Assembly (NCBI RefSeq): GCF_056746865.1
Contig: NZ_CM163382.1
Reading direction: 5' to 3' (one strand)
Length of the DNA: 64,000 nucleotides
Shown: in pieces, positions 45,050-62,224 of the stretch
Layout of the letters: every line of letters starts with the position of its first letter
How positions within the stretch are numbered: position 1 is the first letter of the stretch
Made by a program: the position numbers and the translations under genes
Notes under the pieces: generated by a model
The model's input: only the letters and a program-made list of their open reading frames with translations
The model's database searches: none
What the model was told of the DNA's origin: nothing

Positions 45050-46176
45050 GGGAGTTCTACCGCAGGGGCGGGGAACTCCAAGTGATGTCCATCATCGCAT
45101 CCAGTGCGTCCGGTTTATCCCCGCTGACGCGGGGAACACACATGAATGTCGGTTCAGACCGTGTTTTTACCCGGTTTATCCCCGCTGGCGCGGGGAACAC
45201 TGCCTCGGCGGCGGCTCTGCGCAACCGCGAAACGGTTTATCCCCGCTGGCGCGGGGAACACGTTAAACCGTGATGATCAGCAAAAGCTATTTCCGGTTTA
45301 TCTCCGCTGACGCGGGGAACACGTCAATAGGCGGCGTCCCGTAGCCGTCCCCTTCGGTTTATCCCCGCTGGCGCGGGGAACACTTGAAATGGTCCAGCAC
45401 TGCGACCGTCGGCCCCGGTTTATCCCCGCTGGCGCGGGGAACACGCTGGTGGCGCGGGCAAACGGAACAATCCCGCCGGTTTATCCCCGCTGGCGCGGGG
45501 AACACGCTAACCTATAACACGGAAAATCACACGCTAACGGTTTATCCCCGCTGGCGCGGGGAACACGGCCATTCCCCCAAGCAGACGCAGGAAGTTAACG
45601 GTTTATCCCCGCTGGCGCGGGGAACACCTGGATTTCACCTCAGCAAATGCTGGATGTGGCGGTTTATCCCCGCTGGCGCGGGGAACACCACCCCTGATAT
45701 TTTTGCCACCGTGGTTACTCCGGTTTATCCCCGCTGGCGCGGGGAACACAGAAATCAAACTCAGCGTGCAAATGGGGTAGCCGGTTTATCCCCGCTGGCG
45801 CGGGGAACACTTGCGTTATTTCTATCTGGTGAGTCGCGGCACCGGTTTATCCCCGCTGGCGCGGGGAACACGTATTTTTTATCGTCGCATGAGTCGCGGT
45901 AACCGGTTTATCCCCGCTGGCGCGGGGAACACTTCTGCCGCGCCAGCAAACGTATCGGCGGTCACGGTTTATCCCCGCTGGCGCGGGGAACACCCCAGGC
46001 CAAGCATTATATCCTGTGCGTCGTTCGGTTTATCCCCGCTGGCGCGGGGAACACACCAAGAAGCTGACGAATCAGCCCGACACGCACGGTTTATCCCCGC
46101 TGGCGCGGGGAACACCCAGTTTCATATGAGCCGCCGCGCTGGATCATCGGTTTATCCCCGCTGGCGCGGGGAACAC
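45050..46176 (-). CRISPR. type I-E CRISPR array: 18 full 29-bp repeats plus one degenerate terminal repeat, 18 spacers of 32 bp
   Basis: repeat cggtttatccccgctggcgcggggaacac at exact 61-bp period starting 45111 through 46148; variants at 45111 and 45294; degenerate copy 45050-45078; leader on the cas2 side. Confidence 0.97.
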
Positions 46177-46272
46177 ACTAAGCATACATAACTGTTTTTA
46201 AACAAATTTATTCCGCATCAACAATCTACCAACTAAATTAAAACATTTCCTTATTTTTAAAGAACAGATAAC
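46177..46272 (-). promoter_or_regulatory. CRISPR leader
   Basis: AT-rich ~95 bp between last repeat and cas2 stop. Confidence 0.6.
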
Positions 46273-47486: not shown

Positions 47487-48133
47487 GCCTCTGCTCCGGG
47501 TTTGATCAGCATCAGACCACAGCCGAACGCGCGGCTTTTGCCATACCCCTGGCTCAGACGTTGCAGAAATAACCCGGGATCGGTGACCGTAAGCATCCCC
47601 GTATAATCCACGCTACTGAACTGGATCAGTTGCCGGGAGTTTTCCCGCCACAGTTGCTGTTGTCGGTAGGCATCAACCGAGGTATCCAGCAGTGTAAAAC
47701 CGCTTCTCTCCCCCTGCGCTGCCAGCCAGTCCAGCGCCGCCTGTTGTTGATGCAACCAGACATCACTTCCTTCCGCCTGCCCCCTCACCTGCCGTTTCGC
47801 CTCCATCAGCAGATCGTGGCGCTTGCCCGCTTTACAGATTGTTGGATTCGCCCGCAGGTTGAAACAAAGTTGTTGTCCGGTACGCAGCTCGGGCACAAAT
47901 GACCGGCATTCGATGGTGAACGTTTCACTTTCTGCCGGGCGTTCCTGCGACAGTACAAAAAAGCGAAACGCGCCCTGGAGTTCTTCCCGACGATAAAGAA
48001 ATTGCCTTTCTTTGCCGCCAGGGAAGAGATCCCACAGCCACTGATGCATCACATATTCCCCGCGATCCACCAGATGCAGCAACTGCGCAGGCGAAAGCTG
48101 GCCGGTATGTAAGGTTATTCTTGAGAGGTACAT
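47483..48133 (-). CDS. cas6e: Cas6e (CasE) crRNA endoribonuclease, divergent I-E variant
   Basis: 216 aa from MYLSRITLHTG with RBS GGAGGA; conserved MYLS N-terminus, FNLRANP and C-terminal GKSRAFGCGL. Confidence 0.8.
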
Positions 48134-48837
48134 GGTTCCTCCTTGCTGAGCCACGGCCCCTGATTGACGGTGCGTTCCCCAAACAACCATTGCTGACGAT
48201 TTAAAGGAACATCCCGGCGGCGCAATATTTTGCTCGCGACCAGGCCGTCGTGCTCCCCTTCCCACCAGCATTCATCCTGAAGTTTCGGGAGTGCGATTTT
48301 CAGGTCGTGGAAATGCTCCTGATACTGGTGATATGCGTTACGTAAAACATCAGACGCGTTGCCTTCAAGCAGTAACGGCGCAAGTGGTAATGCCAGCGGA
48401 TGACTTTTTCGCCCCAGATAAAGCGGAAAAACTGGATGGCGTAAACCGCCCTGCAACTGTTCGAGGCTGTAAGGCGCATCGGCTGTTGTTGCCACCGCCA
48501 CCATCCACCAGGCGTCGGTGTAGTAGTCGCGCCGGGAGATAATCGCGCTCAGAAGATCAGGGTCGCTCAACTCTTCGCGACGGCTGAAATAACGCGCTTT
48601 ACGCACCTCTTTTGGCATCTGGATTGTGTGATAATCCCGTGCCCAGCGCGGGTTACGGCTGGCGCAAACCACCAGTGAATAGTGGCGGTTAAACACGTTT
48701 AATCGTTCGGTATCATCACGCCGAATCCCTACCCCGGCAGCCAGCAGCCCCAGCAATGCTGAGCGCGAAGGCAGTTCATGGGTATGACGCACTTCGCCCG
48801 CTCCAAACAAACATTTCTCAACGTCTACTGAAGTCCA
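48115..48837 (-). pseudogene. cas5e: cas5e (casD) lacking its 5-prime end
   Basis: frame reads ...HELPSRSALLGLLAAGVGIRRDD (Cas5 glycine-rich motif) but hits a stop at 48838-48840 with no ATG; upstream is AT-rich island DNA. Confidence 0.65.
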
Positions 48838-48969: not shown

Positions 48970-50184
48970 ATGCTGCTTTCAGACCTTGCTATCAGGCGCG
49001 CGAAGCCGAAAGAAAAGGCTTATACACTCAATGACGGTAACGGGCTTTCGTTACTCATTGAGCCGAACGGCTCGAAAGGGTGGCGACTACGTTACAGATT
49101 TGCAGGAAAGCCCAAAATGTTGTCGTTGGGCGTGTACCCTGATGTGTCTCTGTCTGATGCCAGAGCGGCAAGGGATGAGGCTAAAAGGCTTCTTGCTGGT
49201 GGTATAAATCCAAGTGAGGCCAGAAAAGCTCAAAAGCGAGAACAGGCGAGCAAATTTGGCAATACTTTTGAGGGTATCGCTCGCGAATGGTATGAAAAGC
49301 GGATCGACAGGTGGTCATCGTCATACGCCGAGGAAATGATCGAGACGTTTGAAAAAGACGTTTTTCCGTACATTGGCGGCAGGCCGATCGCAGAAATTAA
49401 GCCAATGGAGTTGCTTGCGGTTCTCTCCCGTCTTAATGACCGTGGGGCGACCGAAAAATTGCGTAAGGTTCGCCAGCGATGCGGCGAGGTGTTCCGGTAC
49501 GCAATCATCACCGGACGCGCTGAATATAACCCCGCACCAGATCTGGCAAGCGCATTTGCTCCACACAAAAAAGAGCATTATGCCTATTTGAAGGCCGACG
49601 AACTGCCGGAATTTTTCCGCGTTCTTAATACGTACACCGGAAGCCAGATCGTCAAGCTGGGTATGCGATTATTGATTCTGACAGGGCTCCGGCCAGGGGA
49701 ATTACGACAGGCAGAATGGCAGGAGATCGATTTTGATAATCGTTTGTGGGAAGTGCCTAAAGAACGAATGAAGATGCGCCGTCCTCATTGTGTGCCGCTT
49801 TCAGAACAGGCGATCGCTATTCTGGAACAGTTAAAACACATGACGGGGCAGTATCAGTTTATTTTCCCTGGTCGAATCCAGCACAGTAAGCCGATGAGTG
49901 AAATGGCGATGAACGTGCTTATTCGTCGTATTGGCTATTCTGGGCGCGTTACTGGTCATGGGTTCCGGCACACGATGAGCACGATTTTACATGAGCAGGG
50001 CTATAACACCGCGTGGATAGAAACGCAGCTTGCACACGTTGATAAGAACTCAATTCGTGGCACGTACAATCATGCGCAATATCTGGACGGGCGGCGCGAG
50101 ATGCTCCAGTGGTACGCCGACTATATGGACTCACTGGAACAGGGCGGCAACGTGGTGCATGGCAAGTTCGGAAAATGTGGATGA
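48970..50184 (+). CDS. int: tyrosine recombinase, P4/CP4-57-type integrase
   Basis: 404 aa from MLLSDLAIRRAK; N-terminal arm-binding-like domain; C-terminal catalytic GHGFRHT and RGTYNHAQY. Confidence 0.9.
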   Translation: MLLSDLAIRRAKPKEKAYTLNDGNGLSLLIEPNGSKGWRLRYRFAGKPKMLSLGVYPDVSLSDARAARDEAKRLLAGGINPSEARKAQKREQASKFGNTFEGIAREWYEKRIDRWSSSYAEEMIETFEKDVFPYIGGRPIAEIKPMELLAVLSRLNDRGATEKLRKVRQRCGEVFRYAIITGRAEYNPAPDLASAFAPHKKEHYAYLKADELPEFFRVLNTYTGSQIVKLGMRLLILTGLRPGELRQAEWQEIDFDNRLWEVPKERMKMRRPHCVPLSEQAIAILEQLKHMTGQYQFIFPGRIQHSKPMSEMAMNVLIRRIGYSGRVTGHGFRHTMSTILHEQGYNTAWIETQLAHVDKNSIRGTYNHAQYLDGRREMLQWYADYMDSLEQGGNVVHGKFGKCG

Positions 50185-50312
50185 CTGGTTGAGTATACAG
50201 TAGTAGACTTTGAGCGACGAAAGAAAAAGCTGTGTCTAGGGTCGCTCCCGAAAAACCGTATACCTCGACGGGCTGGCACAGCCACTACAGTAGAGGACGC
50301 TGAGGTGTGCGT

Positions 50313-51110
50313 ATGATTGATATTCATGCCGAATTAAACGAATACAAAAAAGATTTTATTTCTTTACGTGAATTTCTTGAGGTCGTGCTTAAGGTCGCTG
50401 GTGATGATTATGATGTTTCAGATCTCATAACTTGGATACTCAGGAGAATAAGCGGAGAACATATCCGCCTGTACACAGTAAATGAATTTAAGCTGTTGGA
50501 ATCTTTTTGTAACCCGTATCGGGATGAATTTGATTATGATGTTCTTTATAGAAATCTGGATGCGGTTCGGAAACATGGTTGTTTACCTGGTGAGAGGGAT
50601 GAAAATGGTTTTCTGGTGTCCGGTTATTGGGAAGATCCCGAATTTGAGAACATTGGATTTATAAGGGGTGAAATTTTCGCAATTTTTCCCGATGTCCTTG
50701 ACGCGTTAACGAAGCTGGAAGGCGCTAACTCTTCTGAAAATGACGAGGTACAAGGACGCGATATTGAAAAGAAAGAGTTGCGTACAGAGGATGATTTATT
50801 ATCCCAAATCGCAATGCTGGAAAGAGAAAACGCAGAGTTAAGGGCAAGGATAGAGCAGTTAGAGCAAGAGCGCCCGATACACTTATATAAATACTGGGAT
50901 AAAGACCCATTAGCTAAGGCTATTGAGATTAGAAACAGAGAGTGGGCCAATTACGATCCAGAAAATGATTTTGCCACCAGGGGAAATCAAGAAGCGATAA
51001 CTAGGGAGCTTAAGCAGTGGGGGGCAAGTAATGCTCTTGCAACGCTCATAGAGAGGACTGCCTGCCCTATTAACCGAGACAACAGCCAAAAGAACGCAAA
51101 GCCGGATTAA
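50313..51110 (+). CDS. hypothetical protein (island cargo, unknown function)
   Basis: 265 aa from MIDIHAELNEYKK with RBS gagg; acidic, central coiled-coil-like segment (AMLERENAELRARIEQLEQE); no recognisable motifs. Confidence 0.6.
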   Translation: MIDIHAELNEYKKDFISLREFLEVVLKVAGDDYDVSDLITWILRRISGEHIRLYTVNEFKLLESFCNPYRDEFDYDVLYRNLDAVRKHGCLPGERDENGFLVSGYWEDPEFENIGFIRGEIFAIFPDVLDALTKLEGANSSENDEVQGRDIEKKELRTEDDLLSQIAMLERENAELRARIEQLEQERPIHLYKYWDKDPLAKAIEIRNREWANYDPENDFATRGNQEAITRELKQWGASNALATLIERTACPINRDNSQKNAKPD

Positions 51111-51125
51111 CGCACCATACCGCAT

Positions 51126-51270
51126 ACCCTGAGGGTGATTTACTGTTACCCTGAGGGTATTTTTTTATCTTCCCCGTCAATTTTACCATCACCCTTAGGG
51201 TAGATTTCCTCCCGATTACCATCACCCTTAGGGTTAATTTCCTTCCGGTAACCATTAGGCCTGAGGGTAT
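51126..51270. repeat. five copies of palindrome CCCT(G/T)AGGG within ~33-bp tandem repeats
   Basis: ccctgaggg 51127-51135 and 51149-51157; cccttaggg 51192-51200 and 51225-51233; cctgaggg 51260-51267; 33-bp units at 51184 and 51217. Confidence 0.6.
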
Positions 51271-51337
51271 GAAAATATTCGTTATTTCTGTGCCATGATT
51301 ACCTCGTCAAATTGAGTAGACGTTATGAGGTAAATAG

Positions 51338-51535
51338 ATGTCAAATACGCTTATTCGTTTAACAGAAGTTCAGCGTAGAACTGGATATAGCAAGGCATGG
51401 ATTTATCGCCTTATGGGGCAAGGTAAATTTCCTGCATCAGTTAAAATTGGCTCGCGAGCGATTGCTTTCGTTGAAAGTGAAATTGACGAATGGATCAATC
51501 AGCGTATTGCCGAATCACGCGGAACGGCTGCCTGA
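51338..51535 (+). CDS. alpA: AlpA/Vis-family HTH regulator (excisionase-like)
   Basis: 65 aa MSNTLIRLTEVQRRTGYSKAWIYRLMGQGKFPASVKIGSRAIAFVESEIDEWI; classic AlpA pattern. Confidence 0.8.
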   Translation: MSNTLIRLTEVQRRTGYSKAWIYRLMGQGKFPASVKIGSRAIAFVESEIDEWINQRIAESRGTAA

Positions 51536-57328: not shown

Positions 57329-57411
57329 TTCACAACAGCGAACAGAGTAATTACCCAGTGCGCCGTAAAGCCCCGTCCTTCAGGTCGGGGATATAAGGCG
57401 CGGTTTTCCAC

Positions 57412-57828
57412 CTAACTAGGTGTTTGCTGTTGTTCAATGTATTGGCGGATGATGGATATTGGCGCACCTCCGCAGCTACTGGCAAAATAGCTGGGACTCC
57501 ATAAAACGCCTTTGTAGTAATACCTGACTGCAATATCTGGTCGATCTCGTCGCAATAATCTACTCGATACGCCCTTGAGACTGTTCACCAGGGTGGATAT
57601 CGCCAATTTGGGAGGATAGTTAATTAGCAGGTGAACGTGATCTCGTTCTCCATCCATTTCAACCAGTTCAGCTTCAAAATCAGCACATACACTTGAAAAG
57701 TAAGTGCGTAGTTTTTCTATTGCGTCATGGTCAAAAATCTGGCGTCGGTACTTGGTAACAAAGACCAGGTGAACGTGCATCAGGAAGACACAGTGCCTTC
57801 CACGTCGGATATCGGTTTCTTTTTTCAT
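57412..57828 (-). CDS. tnpA: IS200/IS605 Y1 (HUH) transposase TnpA
   Basis: 138 aa from MKKETDIRRG; HUH motif HVHLL and catalytic Tyr region VLWSPSYFASSCGG. Confidence 0.85.
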   Translation of the reverse strand: MKKETDIRRGRHCVFLMHVHLVFVTKYRRQIFDHDAIEKLRTYFSSVCADFEAELVEMDGERDHVHLLINYPPKLAISTLVNSLKGVSSRLLRRDRPDIAVRYYYKGVLWSPSYFASSCGGAPISIIRQYIEQQQTPS

Positions 57829-57850
57829 AGGCCAAAGTATAATTTGGCAT

Positions 57851-59059
57851 ATGAAACGACTACAAGCTTTCAAATTCCAGTTAAGACCAAATGGAAAACA
57901 GGAGCGTGAAATGAGGCGCTTCGCGGGCGCATGTCGTTTCGTTTTCAATCGTGCTCTGGCGCTTCAGAATGAGAATCATGAGGCCGGGAACAAATATATT
58001 TCTTATGCAAAGATGACTTCCTGGCTGGTTGAATGGAAAAATGCTACTGAAACGCAATGGCTTAAAGATTCTCCCTCACAGCCATTGCAGCAGTCACTGA
58101 AAGACCTTGAGCGAGCCTACAAAAATTTCTTTCAGAAGCGTGCCGCTTTTCCCCGATTCAAAAAGCGGGGACAGCATGATGCATTCCGCTATCCGCAGGG
58201 TGTTAAGCTCGATCAGGAAAACAGCCGTATTTTTCTGCCGAAACTGGGCTGGATGCGCTACCGGAACAGCCGTCAGGTCACGGGTGTTGTGAAAAATGTC
58301 ACTGTCAGCCAGTCCTGCGGTAAGTGGTACATCAGTATTCAGACAGAAAGTGAAGTATCAACTCCGGTTCACCCTTCAGCATTAATGGTCGGGCTGGATG
58401 CTGGCGTGGCTAAACTCGCCACGCTGTCAGATGGCACGGTCTTTGAGCCTGTAAACAGTTTTCATAAAAACCAGAAGAAGCTGGCGAGACTTCAGCGCCA
58501 GTTAAGCCGCAAGGTTAAATTCAGCAACAACTGGCAGAAGCAGAAACGCAAAATACAGCGACTGCATTCCCGTATCGCAAATATCCGCAGGGACTACCTT
58601 CACAAAGTCACAACGACCATCAGCAAAAACCACGCAATGATAGTCATTGAGGATTTGAAGGTCAGCAACATGTCAAAGTCAGCCTCGGGTACGGTCAGCC
58701 AGCCGGGGCGCAATGTCCGGGCAAAATCAGGTTTAAACCGTTCGATACTGGATCAGGGCTGGTATGAAATGCGCCGTCAGCTTGAGTACAAGCAGCTCTG
58801 GTGTGGCGGTCAGGTGCTTGCTGTTCCGCCAGCGTACACAAGCCAGCGTTGCGCGTGCTGTGGTCATACAGCGAAAGAAAATCGCCTGTCACAAAGTCAA
58901 TTCAGATGCCAGGTATGTGGATATACAGCGAACGCCGATGTAAACGGCGCTCGTAACATTTTAGCGGCGGGGCACGCCGTTCTTGCCTGTGGAGGGATGG
59001 TGCAGTCAGGCCGCCCGTTGAAGCAGGAACCCACCGAAATGATTCAGGCGACAGCCTGA
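57851..59059 (+). CDS. tnpB: TnpB (OrfB) RuvC-like RNA-guided nuclease
   Basis: 402 aa; N-terminus [17 protein letters not shown]; RuvC region [15 protein letters not shown]; zinc finger [12 protein letters not shown]...CQVCG; [10 protein letters not shown]. Confidence 0.85.
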
Positions 59060-59118
59060 ACGTAGCAGGAATCCACGTCCTTCAGGGCGTGGAGGATGTC
59101 AAATATCAATGCGACGAC
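58900..59118 (+). ncRNA. predicted TnpB omega-RNA (tnpB 3-prime end, right-end hairpin, flanking guide)
   Basis: inferred from IS200/IS605 architecture only; right-end hairpin 59073-59092; guide would be about 16 nt from 59103. Confidence 0.3.
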
Positions 59119-59692: not shown

Positions 59693-62224
59693 ATGCCAGT
59701 CGTACCAACAGTATCCGGACGTCAGGTTGAGAGCCGTGGAGTTCAGTCAGCAGGCTTGCAGACGTTTTCTCAGCCAGGTATTGGTGATGCTTTTGTTCGG
59801 GCAGGGGCAGAGGCAATTGATGTTTTTGGTCAGGCAAAACAGCGTGCCAATATTGCCTTGATTCAGGAGGCATCCCTTAAACTCAGTCAGATAGGCAGTG
59901 ATCTGCTGAATAATCCTGAAACAGGATTGCTTAACCTGAAAGGGAAAAATGCTATTGGAAAAGGCCATGAGTATACACAGCAGTTTGATGCTCAGATCGA
60001 ACAACTGGCTATGTCGCTGCCGGATGAACAGGCTCGTAATGCTTTCATGCAGCAGGCGCAGCAGCAGCGTATTCAGTTCGCTACGCAGGCCGGGAGGTAC
60101 GAGATAGGGCAAATAAATGCCTACGAAGAAGGCCAGTTTCAGGCGACACTGCTGAATAATGGTAAAAATGCCTCAGCATTATATGGCGACAACGCAGCAT
60201 ACATATTGGCTAATACGCAAACTTTCCAGCAAATTGAGGATTACGGTATTGCGCATGGCTGGAGCGACGAGCAAATCCAGGCCAAGAAAATCGAGTTTAA
60301 AGAAGCAACAGCAAAAGCAACTGCTCAAAATGCTATTGGAGCAAACTATCTTCAGGTAAGACAGCAAAATGGCGAGTTAAGCGATACTGCTGCTGGATCT
60401 CGCCGTGCTGTAGCAGATAGTGGCTCTTCCGATCGTACCCGCGGTATACGCAACAATAACCCCGGCAATCTTGAATACAGCAAAACTAATCCGTGGATTG
60501 GGCAGACTGGTGATGATGGTCGCTTTGCCAAATTCGAAACCCCTGAACACGGTATTCGCGCGCTTGGTCGCAATTTGCTGTCGTATCAGCGTCAGGGTTA
60601 TGACACCATCAGCGAAATAATTAATCGCTGGGCACCGGCCAGTGATGATAATAAAACTGATGCTTATATACGGGCAGTATGTGCTCAGCTCGGTGTAACT
60701 CCTGACCAGCCGCTTGACGCATCAAATCCTGACACACTGAAATCTCTGTGCAAAGCAATTATTCATCATGAGCAAGGCAGTCAGCCGTACAGTGATCAGC
60801 AATTGGCCGCTGGCGTTAGTGCCGCACTGGGGCTTTCTCAGCTACCGACAAAAAATAAACGTTATACCGGTGTAGCCTGGTTCGATGCTTTAAGTGAATC
60901 AGATCAGGCCAGCGTGTTGCGACAGACGGATGCATTAGCCAGACAGCAGCAGGCTGAATATAGAACGATGCTCGAAAGCCGGGTTCGCGATGCAACGGCT
61001 GCGTATATGCGTGGCGTTGAATTTCCTAACCCGCCTGGTGAGGGTGAGTTCATTGCTGCTTATGGTGTCAGAGAAGGAAACCTGCGATATACCGAGTTCA
61101 GAAATTTGCAGATCGCCGGACAGTATATAGGCTCTTTCCGCAACATGCCGACAAGCAGCATTACCGCATATGTTGAGCAATTACGCCCGGATACTGGTGA
61201 GACAGGGGAGGGGTATGCGTCTCGTGCGGAGTTATTCGACCGGGTATCGGCGGCAGCCACGAAGGTAATAACCCAGAGGCAGAATAATCCGTTTAGTGCA
61301 GCGGTGGAAATCGGAGCCTATAAGCCGATCACCAGCAACAACCCTGACGACATCACTGCCGAGGTGGCTAACCGTTTCTCGTCGCAGGAAAGCTTACGCG
61401 CGTTGGGAATTAATGCCCCACTCCTCAACAGTGAAGAGGCGGCTGCGCTGGCACAGCAGGTGCGCGGCACTCAGAACGTTGACCAGACAATTAAACTGTT
61501 GCAGAGCATGGGGGAGAAGCTGCCTGCGCCAGCAATACGGCAGGTGGCATCTGTAATTGCTCCGAACAGTGCGGCAACAGCCTATTCTGCGCTGCTGCTG
61601 GGCACGCCGGATAACCAGTACGACAACACCAGGCCGACGATCCCATATAGTCAGTTCATCGGGTATAAGCCGACGATGAACAAGTACGACGTTGCAAAGG
61701 TTATTCTTTCCGGCGACCAACTACTGAATCCGACGAAGGCCATGAAGAATGCGGGCATAACTCCGGTACAGTTGCCGAGCGAAGATAAGATGAAAGACGC
61801 TTTCGACGAACAGGTAGGTAATGCATTTGCCCGTAACCCGCAGTTACGCCAGATCAGTTATAGCCTTTTCAAAGCCGCTTACGCAGGAATAGCTTATCAA
61901 TCTGGTGATGCCTCTACGGTAAGAACCAGTATGCCTGATACAGACATTGTAGCTGATGCCGTGAAGTATGCTACTGGCGGTATATACAATGGTTTTAATG
62001 GCGGCGACGTTGTAATGCCTTTTGGCATGGATAAATCTACTTTCAAAGATCGCTATACCACATCTGCGAAACAAGCACTGAAAGATGCCGGACTTAACGT
62101 AAATGCAGTGTCAAATTTCACGCCAGTTAATATCGGCAATAACCGGTATCGGCTTGTAAATGGTAGCGGACGCTGGGCAACAGATCCCAGAACCAATAAA
62201 GCTATTGTCGTGAGGGTTGAATAA
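59693..62224 (+). CDS. large hypothetical protein (843 aa), Q/A-rich
   Basis: strong RBS aggagg; conserved-looking central block IRNNNPGNLEYSKTNPWIGQ...FAKFETPEHGIRALGRNLLSYQRQGYDTISEIINRWAP; no P-loop; function unknown. Confidence 0.7.
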   Translation: MPVVPTVSGRQVESRGVQSAGLQTFSQPGIGDAFVRAGAEAIDVFGQAKQRANIALIQEASLKLSQIGSDLLNNPETGLLNLKGKNAIGKGHEYTQQFDAQIEQLAMSLPDEQARNAFMQQAQQQRIQFATQAGRYEIGQINAYEEGQFQATLLNNGKNASALYGDNAAYILANTQTFQQIEDYGIAHGWSDEQIQAKKIEFKEATAKATAQNAIGANYLQVRQQNGELSDTAAGSRRAVADSGSSDRTRGIRNNNPGNLEYSKTNPWIGQTGDDGRFAKFETPEHGIRALGRNLLSYQRQGYDTISEIINRWAPASDDNKTDAYIRAVCAQLGVTPDQPLDASNPDTLKSLCKAIIHHEQGSQPYSDQQLAAGVSAALGLSQLPTKNKRYTGVAWFDALSESDQASVLRQTDALARQQQAEYRTMLESRVRDATAAYMRGVEFPNPPGEGEFIAAYGVREGNLRYTEFRNLQIAGQYIGSFRNMPTSSITAYVEQLRPDTGETGEGYASRAELFDRVSAAATKVITQRQNNPFSAAVEIGAYKPITSNNPDDITAEVANRFSSQESLRALGINAPLLNSEEAAALAQQVRGTQNVDQTIKLLQSMGEKLPAPAIRQVASVIAPNSAATAYSALLLGTPDNQYDNTRPTIPYSQFIGYKPTMNKYDVAKVILSGDQLLNPTKAMKNAGITPVQLPSEDKMKDAFDEQVGNAFARNPQLRQISYSLFKAAYAGIAYQSGDASTVRTSMPDTDIVADAVKYATGGIYNGFNGGDVVMPFGMDKSTFKDRYTTSAKQALKDAGLNVNAVSNFTPVNIGNNRYRLVNGSGRWATDPRTNKAIVVRVE

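What the first reader, a model, noticed from the sequence alone, without database searches (positions are those of the whole stretch)
50313..51110. Uncharacterised 265-aa gene between integrase and alpA (candidate cargo)
The ORF has a good RBS but no motifs I can assign; it is acidic with a central heptad-like segment. The slot next to the integrase in P4-like and PICI-like elements is a known place for variable cargo, including anti-phage genes.
Basis: inference. Interest (0 to 1): 0.5.

Follow-up and report, generated by a model that had tools for sequence, protein, structure and literature searches.

The report
Modular regulator gene upstream of alpA
The gene is real and belongs to an undescribed protein family that always sits just upstream of the alpA switch gene of phage-satellite islands, next to its own array of DNA palindromes, so it is probably the island's own switch regulator and not an anti-phage cargo gene.

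Summary

Comparative genomics argues against "cargo". In 23 relatives' loci examined across Enterobacterales, Pasteurellaceae and Moraxellaceae-like metagenome contigs, 22 show an alpA-family gene directly downstream. The 23rd contig ends just after the gene. The spacer carries a helically phased array of the 11-bp palindrome ACCCTNAGGGT: 13 sites per kb there against 0.005 per kb elsewhere.

The repeat type follows the C-terminal domain of the slot protein. It does not follow AlpA's helix-turn-helix or the N-terminal domain. The N-terminal domain is swapped as a cassette on an otherwise 97.5 % identical backbone.

Best reading (confidence about 0.5): a coiled-coil dimer whose conserved C-domain binds the palindromes and gates the alpA promoter, with the variable N-domain as the input, possibly a helper-phage cue. 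DNA binding, the sign of regulation and phage sensing are all inferred.

The closest positional analogue is iolg/icg of Vibrio PICMI satellites, which is required for excision.

The parts
50302..50305 (+). Shine-Dalgarno GAGG of the slot gene
   Evidence: Read directly; 7 nt before the ATG at 50313.
50313..51110 (+). Slot gene 'X', 265 aa (= WP_001580987-type protein). An undescribed family.
50313..50732 (+). N-terminal domain (aa 1-140). Acidic and variable, exchanged as a cassette. aa 1-65 have the secondary-structure order helix-strand-helix-helix-strand-strand, and aa 109-140 form a beta-alpha-alpha unit carrying the 'YGFRRxEL'-type motif.
   Evidence: AF2 model with pLDDT about 90-96; variability; cassette swap; fusion to another C-domain in P0079/P0084.
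50733..50786 (+). Acidic disordered linker (aa 141-158)
   Evidence: pLDDT below 60; net charge -2.
50787..50870 (+). Coiled-coil helix (aa 159-186), presumed dimerisation element
   Evidence: Single long helix; weak coiled-coil and zipper Pfam hits. Dimerisation is inferred.
50871..51080 (+). Conserved C-terminal four-helix domain (aa 187-256; signature ..DPLxLAIxIRNxEW..Y...AxAIExVACPIxR). Proposed DNA-binding domain.
   Evidence: Alignments; AF2 pLDDT 87; co-variation with the downstream repeats.
51126..51136 (.). Palindrome 1, ACCCTGAGGGT
51148..51158 (.). Palindrome 2, ACCCTGAGGGT
51191..51201 (.). Palindrome 3, ACCCTTAGGGT
51224..51234 (.). Palindrome 4, ACCCTTAGGGT
51251..51268 (.). Promoter-proximal degenerate site, ACCATTAGGCCTGAGGGT. 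It contains GGCCTGAGGGT at 51258-51268 and sits at a conserved position, 68-69 nt before the alpA ATG.
51291..51299 (+). Extended -10-like element TGcCATGAT of the presumed alpA promoter
   Evidence: TG, A2 and T6 are conserved in 12 of the 13 aligned loci. No canonical -35/-10 pair was found. Promoter function and the transcription start are inferred.
51301..51331 (+). Leader hairpin: ACCTCGT (51301-07) pairs with ATGAGGT (51325-31) and buries the alpA SD GAGG (51327-30).
   Evidence: RNAalifold consensus over 13 loci: 7 pairs, only one-sided changes. Function is inferred.
51338..51535 (+). alpA (65 aa, Phage_AlpA/HTH_17 type), the gene immediately downstream in 22 of 23 relatives' loci examined
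48970..50184 (+). Tyrosine integrase (P4-type, Arm-DNA-bind_3 / Phage_int_M / Phage_integrase)
48792..48805 (+). Left end of the island: the 3' end of tRNA-Gly (TTCGCCCGCTCCA) fused to truncated cas5e through the 7-bp microhomology CTTCGCC

Best explanation
The gene encodes the island's own gatekeeper of the alpA switch. The protein has three modules: a swappable acidic N-terminal domain, a coiled-coil helix that probably makes it a dimer, and a conserved 70-residue four-helix C-terminal domain. I propose that the C-domain recognises the 11-bp palindrome ACCCTNAGGGT. Four perfect copies and one degenerate copy of this palindrome fill the 227-bp spacer between the gene's stop codon and alpA, spaced in multiples of about 11 bp. 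The last copy is centred near -43 of an extended -10-type promoter. Oligomers bound on one face of the DNA would set the activity of the alpA promoter. In Gram-negative PICI-type satellites alpA is the master switch for excision and replication. The variable N-domain would be the input, most plausibly binding a helper-phage protein. Shown here: the gene, the family, the synteny with alpA, the array, the co-variation of repeat type with C-domain type, and the N-domain cassette exchange. Inferred: DNA binding, dimerisation and phage sensing. The sign of regulation is also inferred. I lean slightly to a licensing or activating role, because the PICMI slot gene is needed for excision and the promoter has no -35 element, but a Stl-like repressor is nearly as likely.
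For: (1) Synteny. Twenty-three relatives' loci were examined in Yersinia, Salmonella, Kluyvera, Raoultella, Pantoea, Cedecea, Xenorhabdus, Aggregatibacter, another Pasteurellaceae genome, E. coli and metagenomes. In 22 the family member is followed directly by an alpA-family ORF. The remaining contig (L036) ends about 110 nt after the gene. An integrase lies upstream in most but not all loci.
(2) The array. ACCCTNAGGGT with at most one mismatch occurs 42 times in 3.2 kb of spacer DNA from 15 loci, against once in the other 190 kb of those loci. In the window all 4 matches in 64 kb lie in 51126-51234.
(3) Phasing. Spacings cluster at 22, 33, 43-44 and 55 bp (resultant length R = 0.67 at a period of 10.8-11 bp, n = 40). 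The proximal site sits at a fixed distance from the alpA ATG.
(4) Natural swap experiments.
- Islands whose AlpA has the same HTH (RTGYSKAWIYRL) but lack this C-domain have no such sites: L026 (DUF6387), L028 (empty slot) and L040 (same N-domain family, other C-domain; there CACTTCCAA repeats). L041 (third slot family, diverged AlpA HTH RTGYGRAWIYKL) also has none and carries ACCGCAATTGCGGT x2.
- L006 and L034 have a quite different AlpA but this C-domain, and they keep ACCGTGAGGGT/ACCCTCACGGT.
- Diverged C-domains in Pasteurellaceae and a metagenome contig have ACTATNATAGT in the same 5-N-5 layout.
(5) Modularity. L037 and L038 are 97.5 % identical from the coiled coil through alpA but show no similarity over the N-domain. 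The same N-domain family is fused to another C-domain. Several genera encode the N part as a separate ORF.
(6) Structure. A confident AF2 model shows two globular domains joined by a coiled coil.
(7) Literature. alpA is the phage-induced master activator of GN-PICIs and its inducer is unknown (PMC6092414). In PICMI115 the gene in this slot is required for excision (PMC10803314).
Confidence: 0.5

Rival explanations
1. Recombination accessory factor. The protein works with Int and AlpA (acting as excisionase) in the excision or integration complex, as proposed for IOLG/ICG of Vibrio PICMI satellites, and does not control transcription.
For: It occupies the same slot between int and alpA. In PICMI115, int, iolg and alpA are all needed for excision, and the authors propose a three-protein excision complex (PMC10803314). 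The gene is co-oriented with int and only 128 nt downstream of it.
Against: Linkage is to alpA, not to int: Pasteurellaceae and metagenome loci have the gene and alpA but no adjacent integrase. The palindromes lie 2.3 kb from the island end and not in an att arm, and none occurs elsewhere in the window. The array is identical between L037 and L038 although their integrases are only 81 % identical. Homology to any IOLG family could not be tested, and the gene does not overlap int.
Confidence: 0.17
2. AlpA-binding adaptor or anti-activator. The conserved C-domain binds AlpA or another conserved protein and not DNA. The palindromes are bound by AlpA or a host factor. The N-domain recruits or senses a second partner.
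For: alpA lies directly downstream in 22 of 23 loci examined. The protein is acidic and the C-domain neutral, which fits a protein-protein module better than a DNA binder. A protein antagonist is known for the unrelated Pseudomonas regulator that is also named AlpA: YgfB (abstract of PMC9998450).
Against: Islands with the same AlpA HTH but no class-A gene lack the palindromes, and loci with a different AlpA class but a class-A gene keep them. If AlpA bound these sites, its targets should follow AlpA.
Confidence: 0.15
3. Accessory cargo, for example a single-gene anti-phage or anti-defence protein. It would have a variable target-recognition N-domain and be unrelated to island regulation.
For: The slot is occupied by unrelated genes in related islands and by 13 families in PICMIs. 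The N-domain is hypervariable and exchanged, as in conflict genes. The protein is very acidic, as are some DNA-mimic anti-restriction proteins (general knowledge).
Against: PADLOC gives no hit. There is no enzymatic or effector domain, and no homologue in 50,697 phage or 72,556 plasmid records. The conserved part is tied to a cis array and to alpA over a wide taxonomic range. The island carries a separate distal block of large unknown genes in the usual accessory position.
Confidence: 0.1

Closest known systems
iolg / icg genes of Vibrio PICMI satellites (Nat Commun 2024, PMC10803314)
   Same: A gene of unknown function sits between int and alpA and is co-oriented with them. It belongs to many unrelated families across related satellites. 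In PICMI115 it is required, with int and alpA, for helper-induced excision, and it appears constitutively expressed while alpA is phage-induced.
   Different: Most iolg genes overlap int by 1-13 nt. Here there is a 128-nt gap, and the tight link is to alpA and a palindrome array. Sequence relatedness could not be tested because no PICMI sequences were held. No Vibrio member of this family was seen. No cognate repeat array is described for PICMIs.
Stl/Rpr master repressors of Gram-positive PICIs (SaPIs)
   Same: Both lie next to int in a phage satellite and have a modular build: a conserved DNA-binding part and a variable part. In Stl the variable part binds a specific helper-phage protein and so couples the satellite to its helper. 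That is the same logic as the model proposed here.
   Different: Stl has a recognised N-terminal HTH and is transcribed divergently from the operon it represses. Here the conserved domain is C-terminal, has no recognisable HTH profile, and the gene is co-directional with its presumed target. Gram-negative PICIs are reported to lack a known repressor and to use the activator AlpA (PMC6092414). Whether this protein represses or activates is unknown.
AlpA / Vis / TorI small winged-helix regulators and excisionases
   Same: Same functional module, the 'integration zone' of GN-PICIs (PMC10111431). AlpA auto-activates its own promoter, so both proteins would act on the same control region.
   Different: No sequence relation. 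AlpA is a 65-aa monomeric wHTH; this protein is 265 aa with a coiled coil. The palindromes do not follow the AlpA type.
bZIP transcription factors (label given by PGAP to some alleles)
   Same: Both have a leucine-zipper-like coiled coil, and the presumed targets are short compact palindromes.
   Different: The segment N-terminal to the zipper is acidic, not basic. The Pfam bZIP_2 hit is insignificant (i-E 0.054). The conserved domain lies C-terminal to the zipper.

Membership tests
Known anti-phage defence systems (PADLOC-DB 2.0) | Significant match to a profile of a known or candidate defence protein | tested here: not met
   0 families at E <= 1.
bZIP transcription factor (PGAP label on alleles in L011/L012) | Basic DNA-contacting region immediately N-terminal to the leucine zipper, and a significant bZIP profile match | tested here: not met
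   bZIP_2 i-Evalue 0.054, covering only the zipper at 154-186. The preceding linker 141-158 has net charge -2 and is disordered.
PICMI iolg/icg (gene between int and alpA) | Located between int and alpA, same orientation | tested here: met
   true in most related loci.
PICMI iolg/icg (gene between int and alpA) | Overlaps int by 1-13 nt (iolg) or is contiguous with int (icg) | tested here: not met
   int stops at 50184 and the gene starts at 50313, a 128-nt gap.
PICMI iolg/icg (gene between int and alpA) | Required for helper-induced excision | not testable with these tools
   Needs a deletion mutant and a helper phage.
PICMI iolg/icg (gene between int and alpA) | Sequence homology to one of the 13 described families | not tested
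No Vibrionaceae homologue appeared.
Stl-type satellite master repressor | Recognisable HTH DNA-binding domain | tested here: inconclusive
Stl-type satellite master repressor | Adjacent to int and divergently transcribed from the repressed operon, with operators in the divergent region | tested here: not met
   The gene is co-directional with int and alpA, and the repeats lie downstream of the gene.
Stl-type satellite master repressor | Variable domain that binds a helper-phage protein, which relieves repression | not testable with these tools
   Variability and cassette exchange of the N-domain are shown. Partner binding is not.
Gram-negative PICI (island level; four-zone organisation of PMC10111431) | Unidirectional int + alpA integration zone, Bro-N/AntA dynamic zone, primase replication zone, accessory late zone | tested here: met
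   RefSeq annotation of the 99.5 % identical island in L001: int, X, alpA, antA/antB, BRO-N, Icd-like, DUF4222, DUF927 primase, SSB, ProQ/FinO, PerC, then three large ORFs. Packaging or capsid-redirecting genes were not found, and helper dependence is untested.

The most novel reading that the evidence does not exclude
This family is the missing link between helper-phage infection and alpA activation in Gram-negative PICI-type satellites. It would be a phage-sensing transcription factor with a previously unrecognised DNA-binding fold, the 'IRNxEW...ACPIxR' four-helix domain. Its swappable N-domain determines which helper phage induces the island, making it a Gram-negative counterpart of SaPI Stl, built differently and possibly acting positively.
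Probability: 0.25. Interest if true: 0.75.

Novelty: new variant of a known kind. Interest (0 to 1): 0.55.

Why it matters
Two papers state as an open question how a helper phage switches on alpA, the master switch of Gram-negative phage satellites (PMC6092414; PMC10803314). A conserved, modular protein with its own operator array directly in front of the alpA promoter is a concrete candidate for that link, and standard assays can test it. Its exchangeable N-domain would offer a handle on helper specificity. It would also add a new family, and perhaps a new DNA-binding domain, to the regulators of mobile islands. The gene occurs in about 2.7 % of complete E. coli genomes, including the O104:H4 outbreak strain. 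For defence-island mining, the practical lesson is that the slot next to the integrase in these islands holds regulatory modules. It should not be scored as cargo by position alone.

Tried and rejected
- Profile searches of the protein and of a 35-sequence C-domain alignment gave only weak coiled-coil matches (Pfam, NCBIfam, PHROGs, PADLOC).
- PDB sequence searches with the protein, the C-domain profile and the alternative C-domain profile found nothing below E = 0.1. A 0.2 hit to R.Ecl18kI was dismissed as chance.
- tblastn against phage and plasmid collections gave no match.
- K-12 YfjH, the gene between intA and alpA in CP4-57, is not related: it lies on the opposite strand and BLASTP gives E = 0.24.
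- hhalign of the class-A against the class-B C-domain showed no relation (probability 0.3 %).
- My first idea was that the variable 'TRGNQ / TIPSQ' segment of the C-domain co-varies with the half-site sequence. It held for 10 loci but was rejected after 9 more: TTPSA, TIPSQ and SKSPKQ variants also have ACCCTNAGGGT.
- The idea that the palindromes are integrase arm sites was rejected on position and on int divergence.
- The idea that they are intrinsic terminators was rejected. The stems are 5 bp, a T-run follows only one copy, and this is not conserved in other loci.
- Pseudomonas AlpA and its binding element turned out to be a different, Q-like protein and are not informative.
- The search for related loci with the broad alignment failed for lack of a conserved stretch and was repeated with a narrower one.

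Full report
**1. The observation**

The ORF exists as described. The ORF listing gives a + strand frame 50307-51110. The ATG at 50313 has GAGG 7 nt upstream and is the start RefSeq uses for the identical 798-nt gene. The product has 265 residues, net charge -21 and pI 4.67. It lies between a P4-type tyrosine integrase (to 50184) and a 65-aa AlpA-family gene (51338-51535).

A gene at least 95 % identical is present once per genome in 141 of 5426 complete E. coli genomes, always chromosomal. Six more genomes carry 60-90 % variants. It is annotated 'hypothetical', 'coiled-coil domain-containing' or, for some alleles, 'bZIP transcription factor'. It is therefore a real, maintained gene.

**2. The surrounding element**

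In other strains the 99.5 % identical island sits at tRNA-Gly next to actS. Its gene order is int, X, alpA, antA/antB, BRO-N, (YlcI/YnfO on the other strand), Icd-like, DUF4222, DUF927 primase, SSB, ProQ/FinO, PerC, then three large unknown ORFs. This matches the four-zone plan described for Gram-negative PICIs: an integration zone with Int and AlpA, a Bro-N dynamic zone, a replication zone and a late or accessory zone (PMC10111431). Helper dependence is untested and no packaging genes were seen. I therefore call it a PICI-type island.

**3. What the protein looks like**

Nothing characterised is related to it.
- Pfam, NCBIfam, PHROGs and PADLOC give only sub-threshold coiled-coil hits or none.
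- PDB sequence searches give nothing.
- No copy occurs in 50,697 phage or 72,556 plasmid records.

Homologues form a small family in Enterobacterales, Pasteurellaceae, Acinetobacter, Psychrobacter, Moraxella and Oligella. There are 43 clusters at 90 % identity and 65 representatives at 50 % identity. Only the last ~100 residues are conserved: a heptad segment followed by the signature ERPILLxKYRxDDPLxLAIxIRNxEWxxYD...AxAIExVACPIxR.

AlphaFold2 with a 56-sequence alignment gives a confident model (pLDDT 88.5) with four parts:
- An N-terminal alpha/beta domain at residues 1-140. Residues 1-65 have the order helix-strand-helix-helix-strand-strand.
- A disordered acidic linker at 141-158.
- One long helix at 159-186.
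- A four-helix C-domain at 199-250, confirmed when modelled alone at pLDDT 87.

**4. Context in relatives**

I examined 23 loci carrying relatives, from Yersinia, Salmonella, Kluyvera, Raoultella, Pantoea, Cedecea, Xenorhabdus, Aggregatibacter, another Pasteurellaceae genome (six copies), E. coli variants and metagenome contigs. In 22 of them the family member is directly followed by an AlpA-family ORF. The remaining contig (L036) ends about 110 nt after the gene, so nothing can be said there.

An integrase is upstream in most loci, but not in the Pasteurellaceae and one metagenome lineage. In several genera the N-terminal ~106 residues are a separate ORF. The stable partner is therefore alpA, not int.

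**5. The palindrome array**

The 227-bp spacer between X and alpA contains four perfect copies of ACCCTNAGGGT, at 51126, 51148, 51191 and 51224. A degenerate copy lies within ACCATTAGGCCTGAGGGT (51251-51268). These four are the only matches with at most one mismatch in the 64-kb window.

Across 15 loci with this C-domain there are 42 sites in 3.2 kb of spacer, against 1 in the remaining 190 kb. Three further regularities appear:
- The first site follows the stop codon by 5-18 nt in most loci.
- Neighbouring sites are 22, 33, 43-44 or 55 bp apart (resultant length R = 0.67 at a period of 10.8-11 bp, n = 40).
- The proximal site ends 68-69 nt before the alpA ATG in the loci where the scan picked it up (window, L003, L013, L029, L030).

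Downstream of it, 12 of the 13 aligned loci share a TGnNANNAT extended -10-like element (window 51291-51299). All 13 share a 7-bp stem (51301-07 with 51325-31) that buries the alpA Shine-Dalgarno. No canonical -35/-10 pair is present. If transcription starts about 7 nt after the -10 element, the proximal site is centred near -43. These last points are inferences.

**6. Which protein goes with the palindromes**

Natural variation gives a partial answer.

(a) Islands whose AlpA has the same helix-turn-helix (LIRLxEVQRRTGYSKAWIYRL) but a different slot content have no ACCCTNAGGGT at all:
- L026: DUF6387 protein.
- L028: empty slot, with GCTGACAAAGCG repeats instead.
- L040: a protein with the same N-domain family as X but another C-domain, with CACTTCCAA repeats.

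L041 holds a third coiled-coil family with two ACCGCAATTGCGGT palindromes and also has none, but its AlpA HTH is diverged (RTGYGRAWIYKL).

(b) L006 and L034 have a clearly different AlpA class but the X-type C-domain, and they keep ACCGTGAGGGT/ACCCTCACGGT.

(c) Diverged C-domains in Pasteurellaceae and a low-GC metagenome contig have ACTATNATAGT in the same 5-N-5 layout.

So the repeat type follows the C-terminal domain of the slot protein. It does not follow AlpA and it does not follow the N-domain.

(d) L037 and L038 are 97.5 % identical from the coiled coil through the array and alpA. They show no detectable similarity over the N-domain, and their integrases are 81 % identical. The N-domain is therefore exchanged as a cassette on a fixed C-domain/array/alpA unit.

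**7. Mechanism proposed**

The simplest model has three elements:
- The C-domain is a sequence-specific DNA-binding domain.
- The coiled coil pairs two of them on each compact palindrome.
- Several dimers occupy one face of the DNA upstream of the alpA promoter and set its activity.

The exchangeable N-domain would be the input. In a phage satellite the obvious cue is a helper-phage protein. This is the logic of SaPI Stl, and it would answer the question left open for Gram-negative PICIs and PICMIs, namely what turns on alpA (PMC6092414; PMC10803314).

The sign is not determinable from sequence. Three points favour a positive or licensing role:
- A promoter without a -35 element.
- A proximal site near -43.
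- The requirement of the PICMI slot gene for excision.

Two points favour a repressor: the multi-site cooperative array and the Stl precedent.

The leader hairpin may keep read-through transcripts from int-X from being translated for alpA. That is speculation.

**8. Weak points**

- DNA binding is not demonstrated.
- The protein is very acidic and the C-domain only neutral.
- No DNA-binding profile or significant fold match exists.
- The two alternative C-domain classes are represented by one locus each.
- Gene, array and alpA are physically linked, so hitch-hiking cannot be excluded.
- I could not find specificity-determining residues. An early co-variation idea failed when more loci were added.

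**9. Rivals**

- An excision cofactor in the sense proposed for PICMI IOLG. This is compatible with part of the data, but the link is to alpA and not to int, and the sites are not in an att arm.
- An AlpA-binding adaptor, with AlpA as the DNA binder. This is disfavoured by section 6, points (a) and (b).
- True cargo or defence. This is disfavoured by the absence of PADLOC hits, the lack of any effector domain and the cis-array linkage. The only support is the variability of the slot and of the N-domain.

**10. Comparison and novelty**

The closest known items are PICMI iolg/icg (same slot, unknown function, needed for excision) and SaPI Stl (same logic, different build and orientation). The PGAP label 'bZIP transcription factor' fails its defining feature, since there is no basic region.

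The family, its C-domain and its operator array are not described in Pfam, NCBIfam, PHROGs or the searchable literature. I rate it a new variant of a known kind: a satellite regulatory module. It is moderately interesting because it makes the alpA-induction question experimentally approachable.

**11. Side observations**

- In the window the island's left end is fused to a truncated cas5e through a 7-bp microhomology, CTTCGCC, that is also the 3' end of tRNA-Gly. The same junction exists in a complete genome, ETEC1747.
- An IS200/IS605 element at 57355-59102 replaces about 980 bp that include the ProQ/FinO gene.
- The three distal large ORFs have no PADLOC or NCBIfam hit.

Noticed in passing
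window 48115-48810 (cas5e, - strand) and 48792-48805: The island is not next to tRNA-Gly here. Its left end is joined to a 5'-truncated type I-E cas5e gene. Native cas5e matches up to 48798 and the island/tRNA-Gly 3' end matches from 48792, so the junction is a 7-bp microhomology, CTTCGCC, about the size of a tyrosine-recombinase overlap region. No tRNA lies in the window, and cas7, cse2, cse1 and cas3 are absent from this side. The same junction occurs in the complete genome of ETEC1747 (NZ_CP122722.1), so it is not an assembly artefact. It suggests Int-mediated recombination, either integration or inversion, at a pseudo-att site that inactivates the CRISPR-Cas operon.
   Followed up: partly
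window 59693-62224 and onward to 64000 (L001 23617-30798): An operon of three large ORFs (843 aa, 686 aa, >863 aa) lies at the distal end of the island. It has no PADLOC and no NCBIfam hit and is annotated hypothetical. This is the usual accessory position and a better candidate for novel cargo or defence than the gene under study.
   Followed up: partly
window 57355-59102: An IS200/IS605-family element (tnpA 57412-57948 on the - strand, tnpB 57851-59059 on the + strand) is inserted after ssb. Compared with the 99.5 % identical island in strain SCU-105, it replaces about 980 bp holding the ProQ/FinO-family gene, a 138-aa ORF and part of the perC pseudogene.
   Followed up: yes
window 51291-51331: The alpA leader has a conserved extended -10-like TGnNANNAT and a conserved 7-bp stem (ACCTCGT/ATGAGGT) that sequesters the alpA Shine-Dalgarno. 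The stem is present in all 13 aligned loci, including ones with other slot genes, and the -10-like element in 12 of them. Only one-sided base changes were seen, so there is no covariation proof. The stem may block translation of alpA from read-through int-X transcripts.
   Followed up: partly
L026 2937-3818, L027 3029-3880, L040 4001-4774, L041 2089-2844: Related E. coli and enterobacterial islands carry other uncharacterised genes in the same slot: DUF6387 proteins; a protein with X's N-domain fused to a different C-domain, followed by CACTTCCAA repeats; and a third coiled-coil protein followed by two ACCGCAATTGCGGT palindromes. None has a Pfam hit with known function.
   Followed up: partly
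L013-L015, L003, L038 (upstream of the match): In Kluyvera, Raoultella, Pantoea, Yersinia and one E. coli strain, the family member is split into two adjacent ORFs (about 106 aa N part and 147-153 aa C part). The recurrence suggests a genuine two-protein version and not random frameshifts.
   Followed up: no
L019-L024 (Pasteurellaceae bacterium Macca, LVZB01): One genome holds six copies of the same family member plus alpA unit on different contigs, some truncated, next to terminase-like genes and not an integrase. This points to a multi-copy element of a different build.
   Followed up: no
window 45057-46200: The many short ORFs translating to '...FIPAGAGNT...' are the repeats of the type I-E CRISPR array between iap and cas2 read in frame. 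They are not genes.
   Followed up: no
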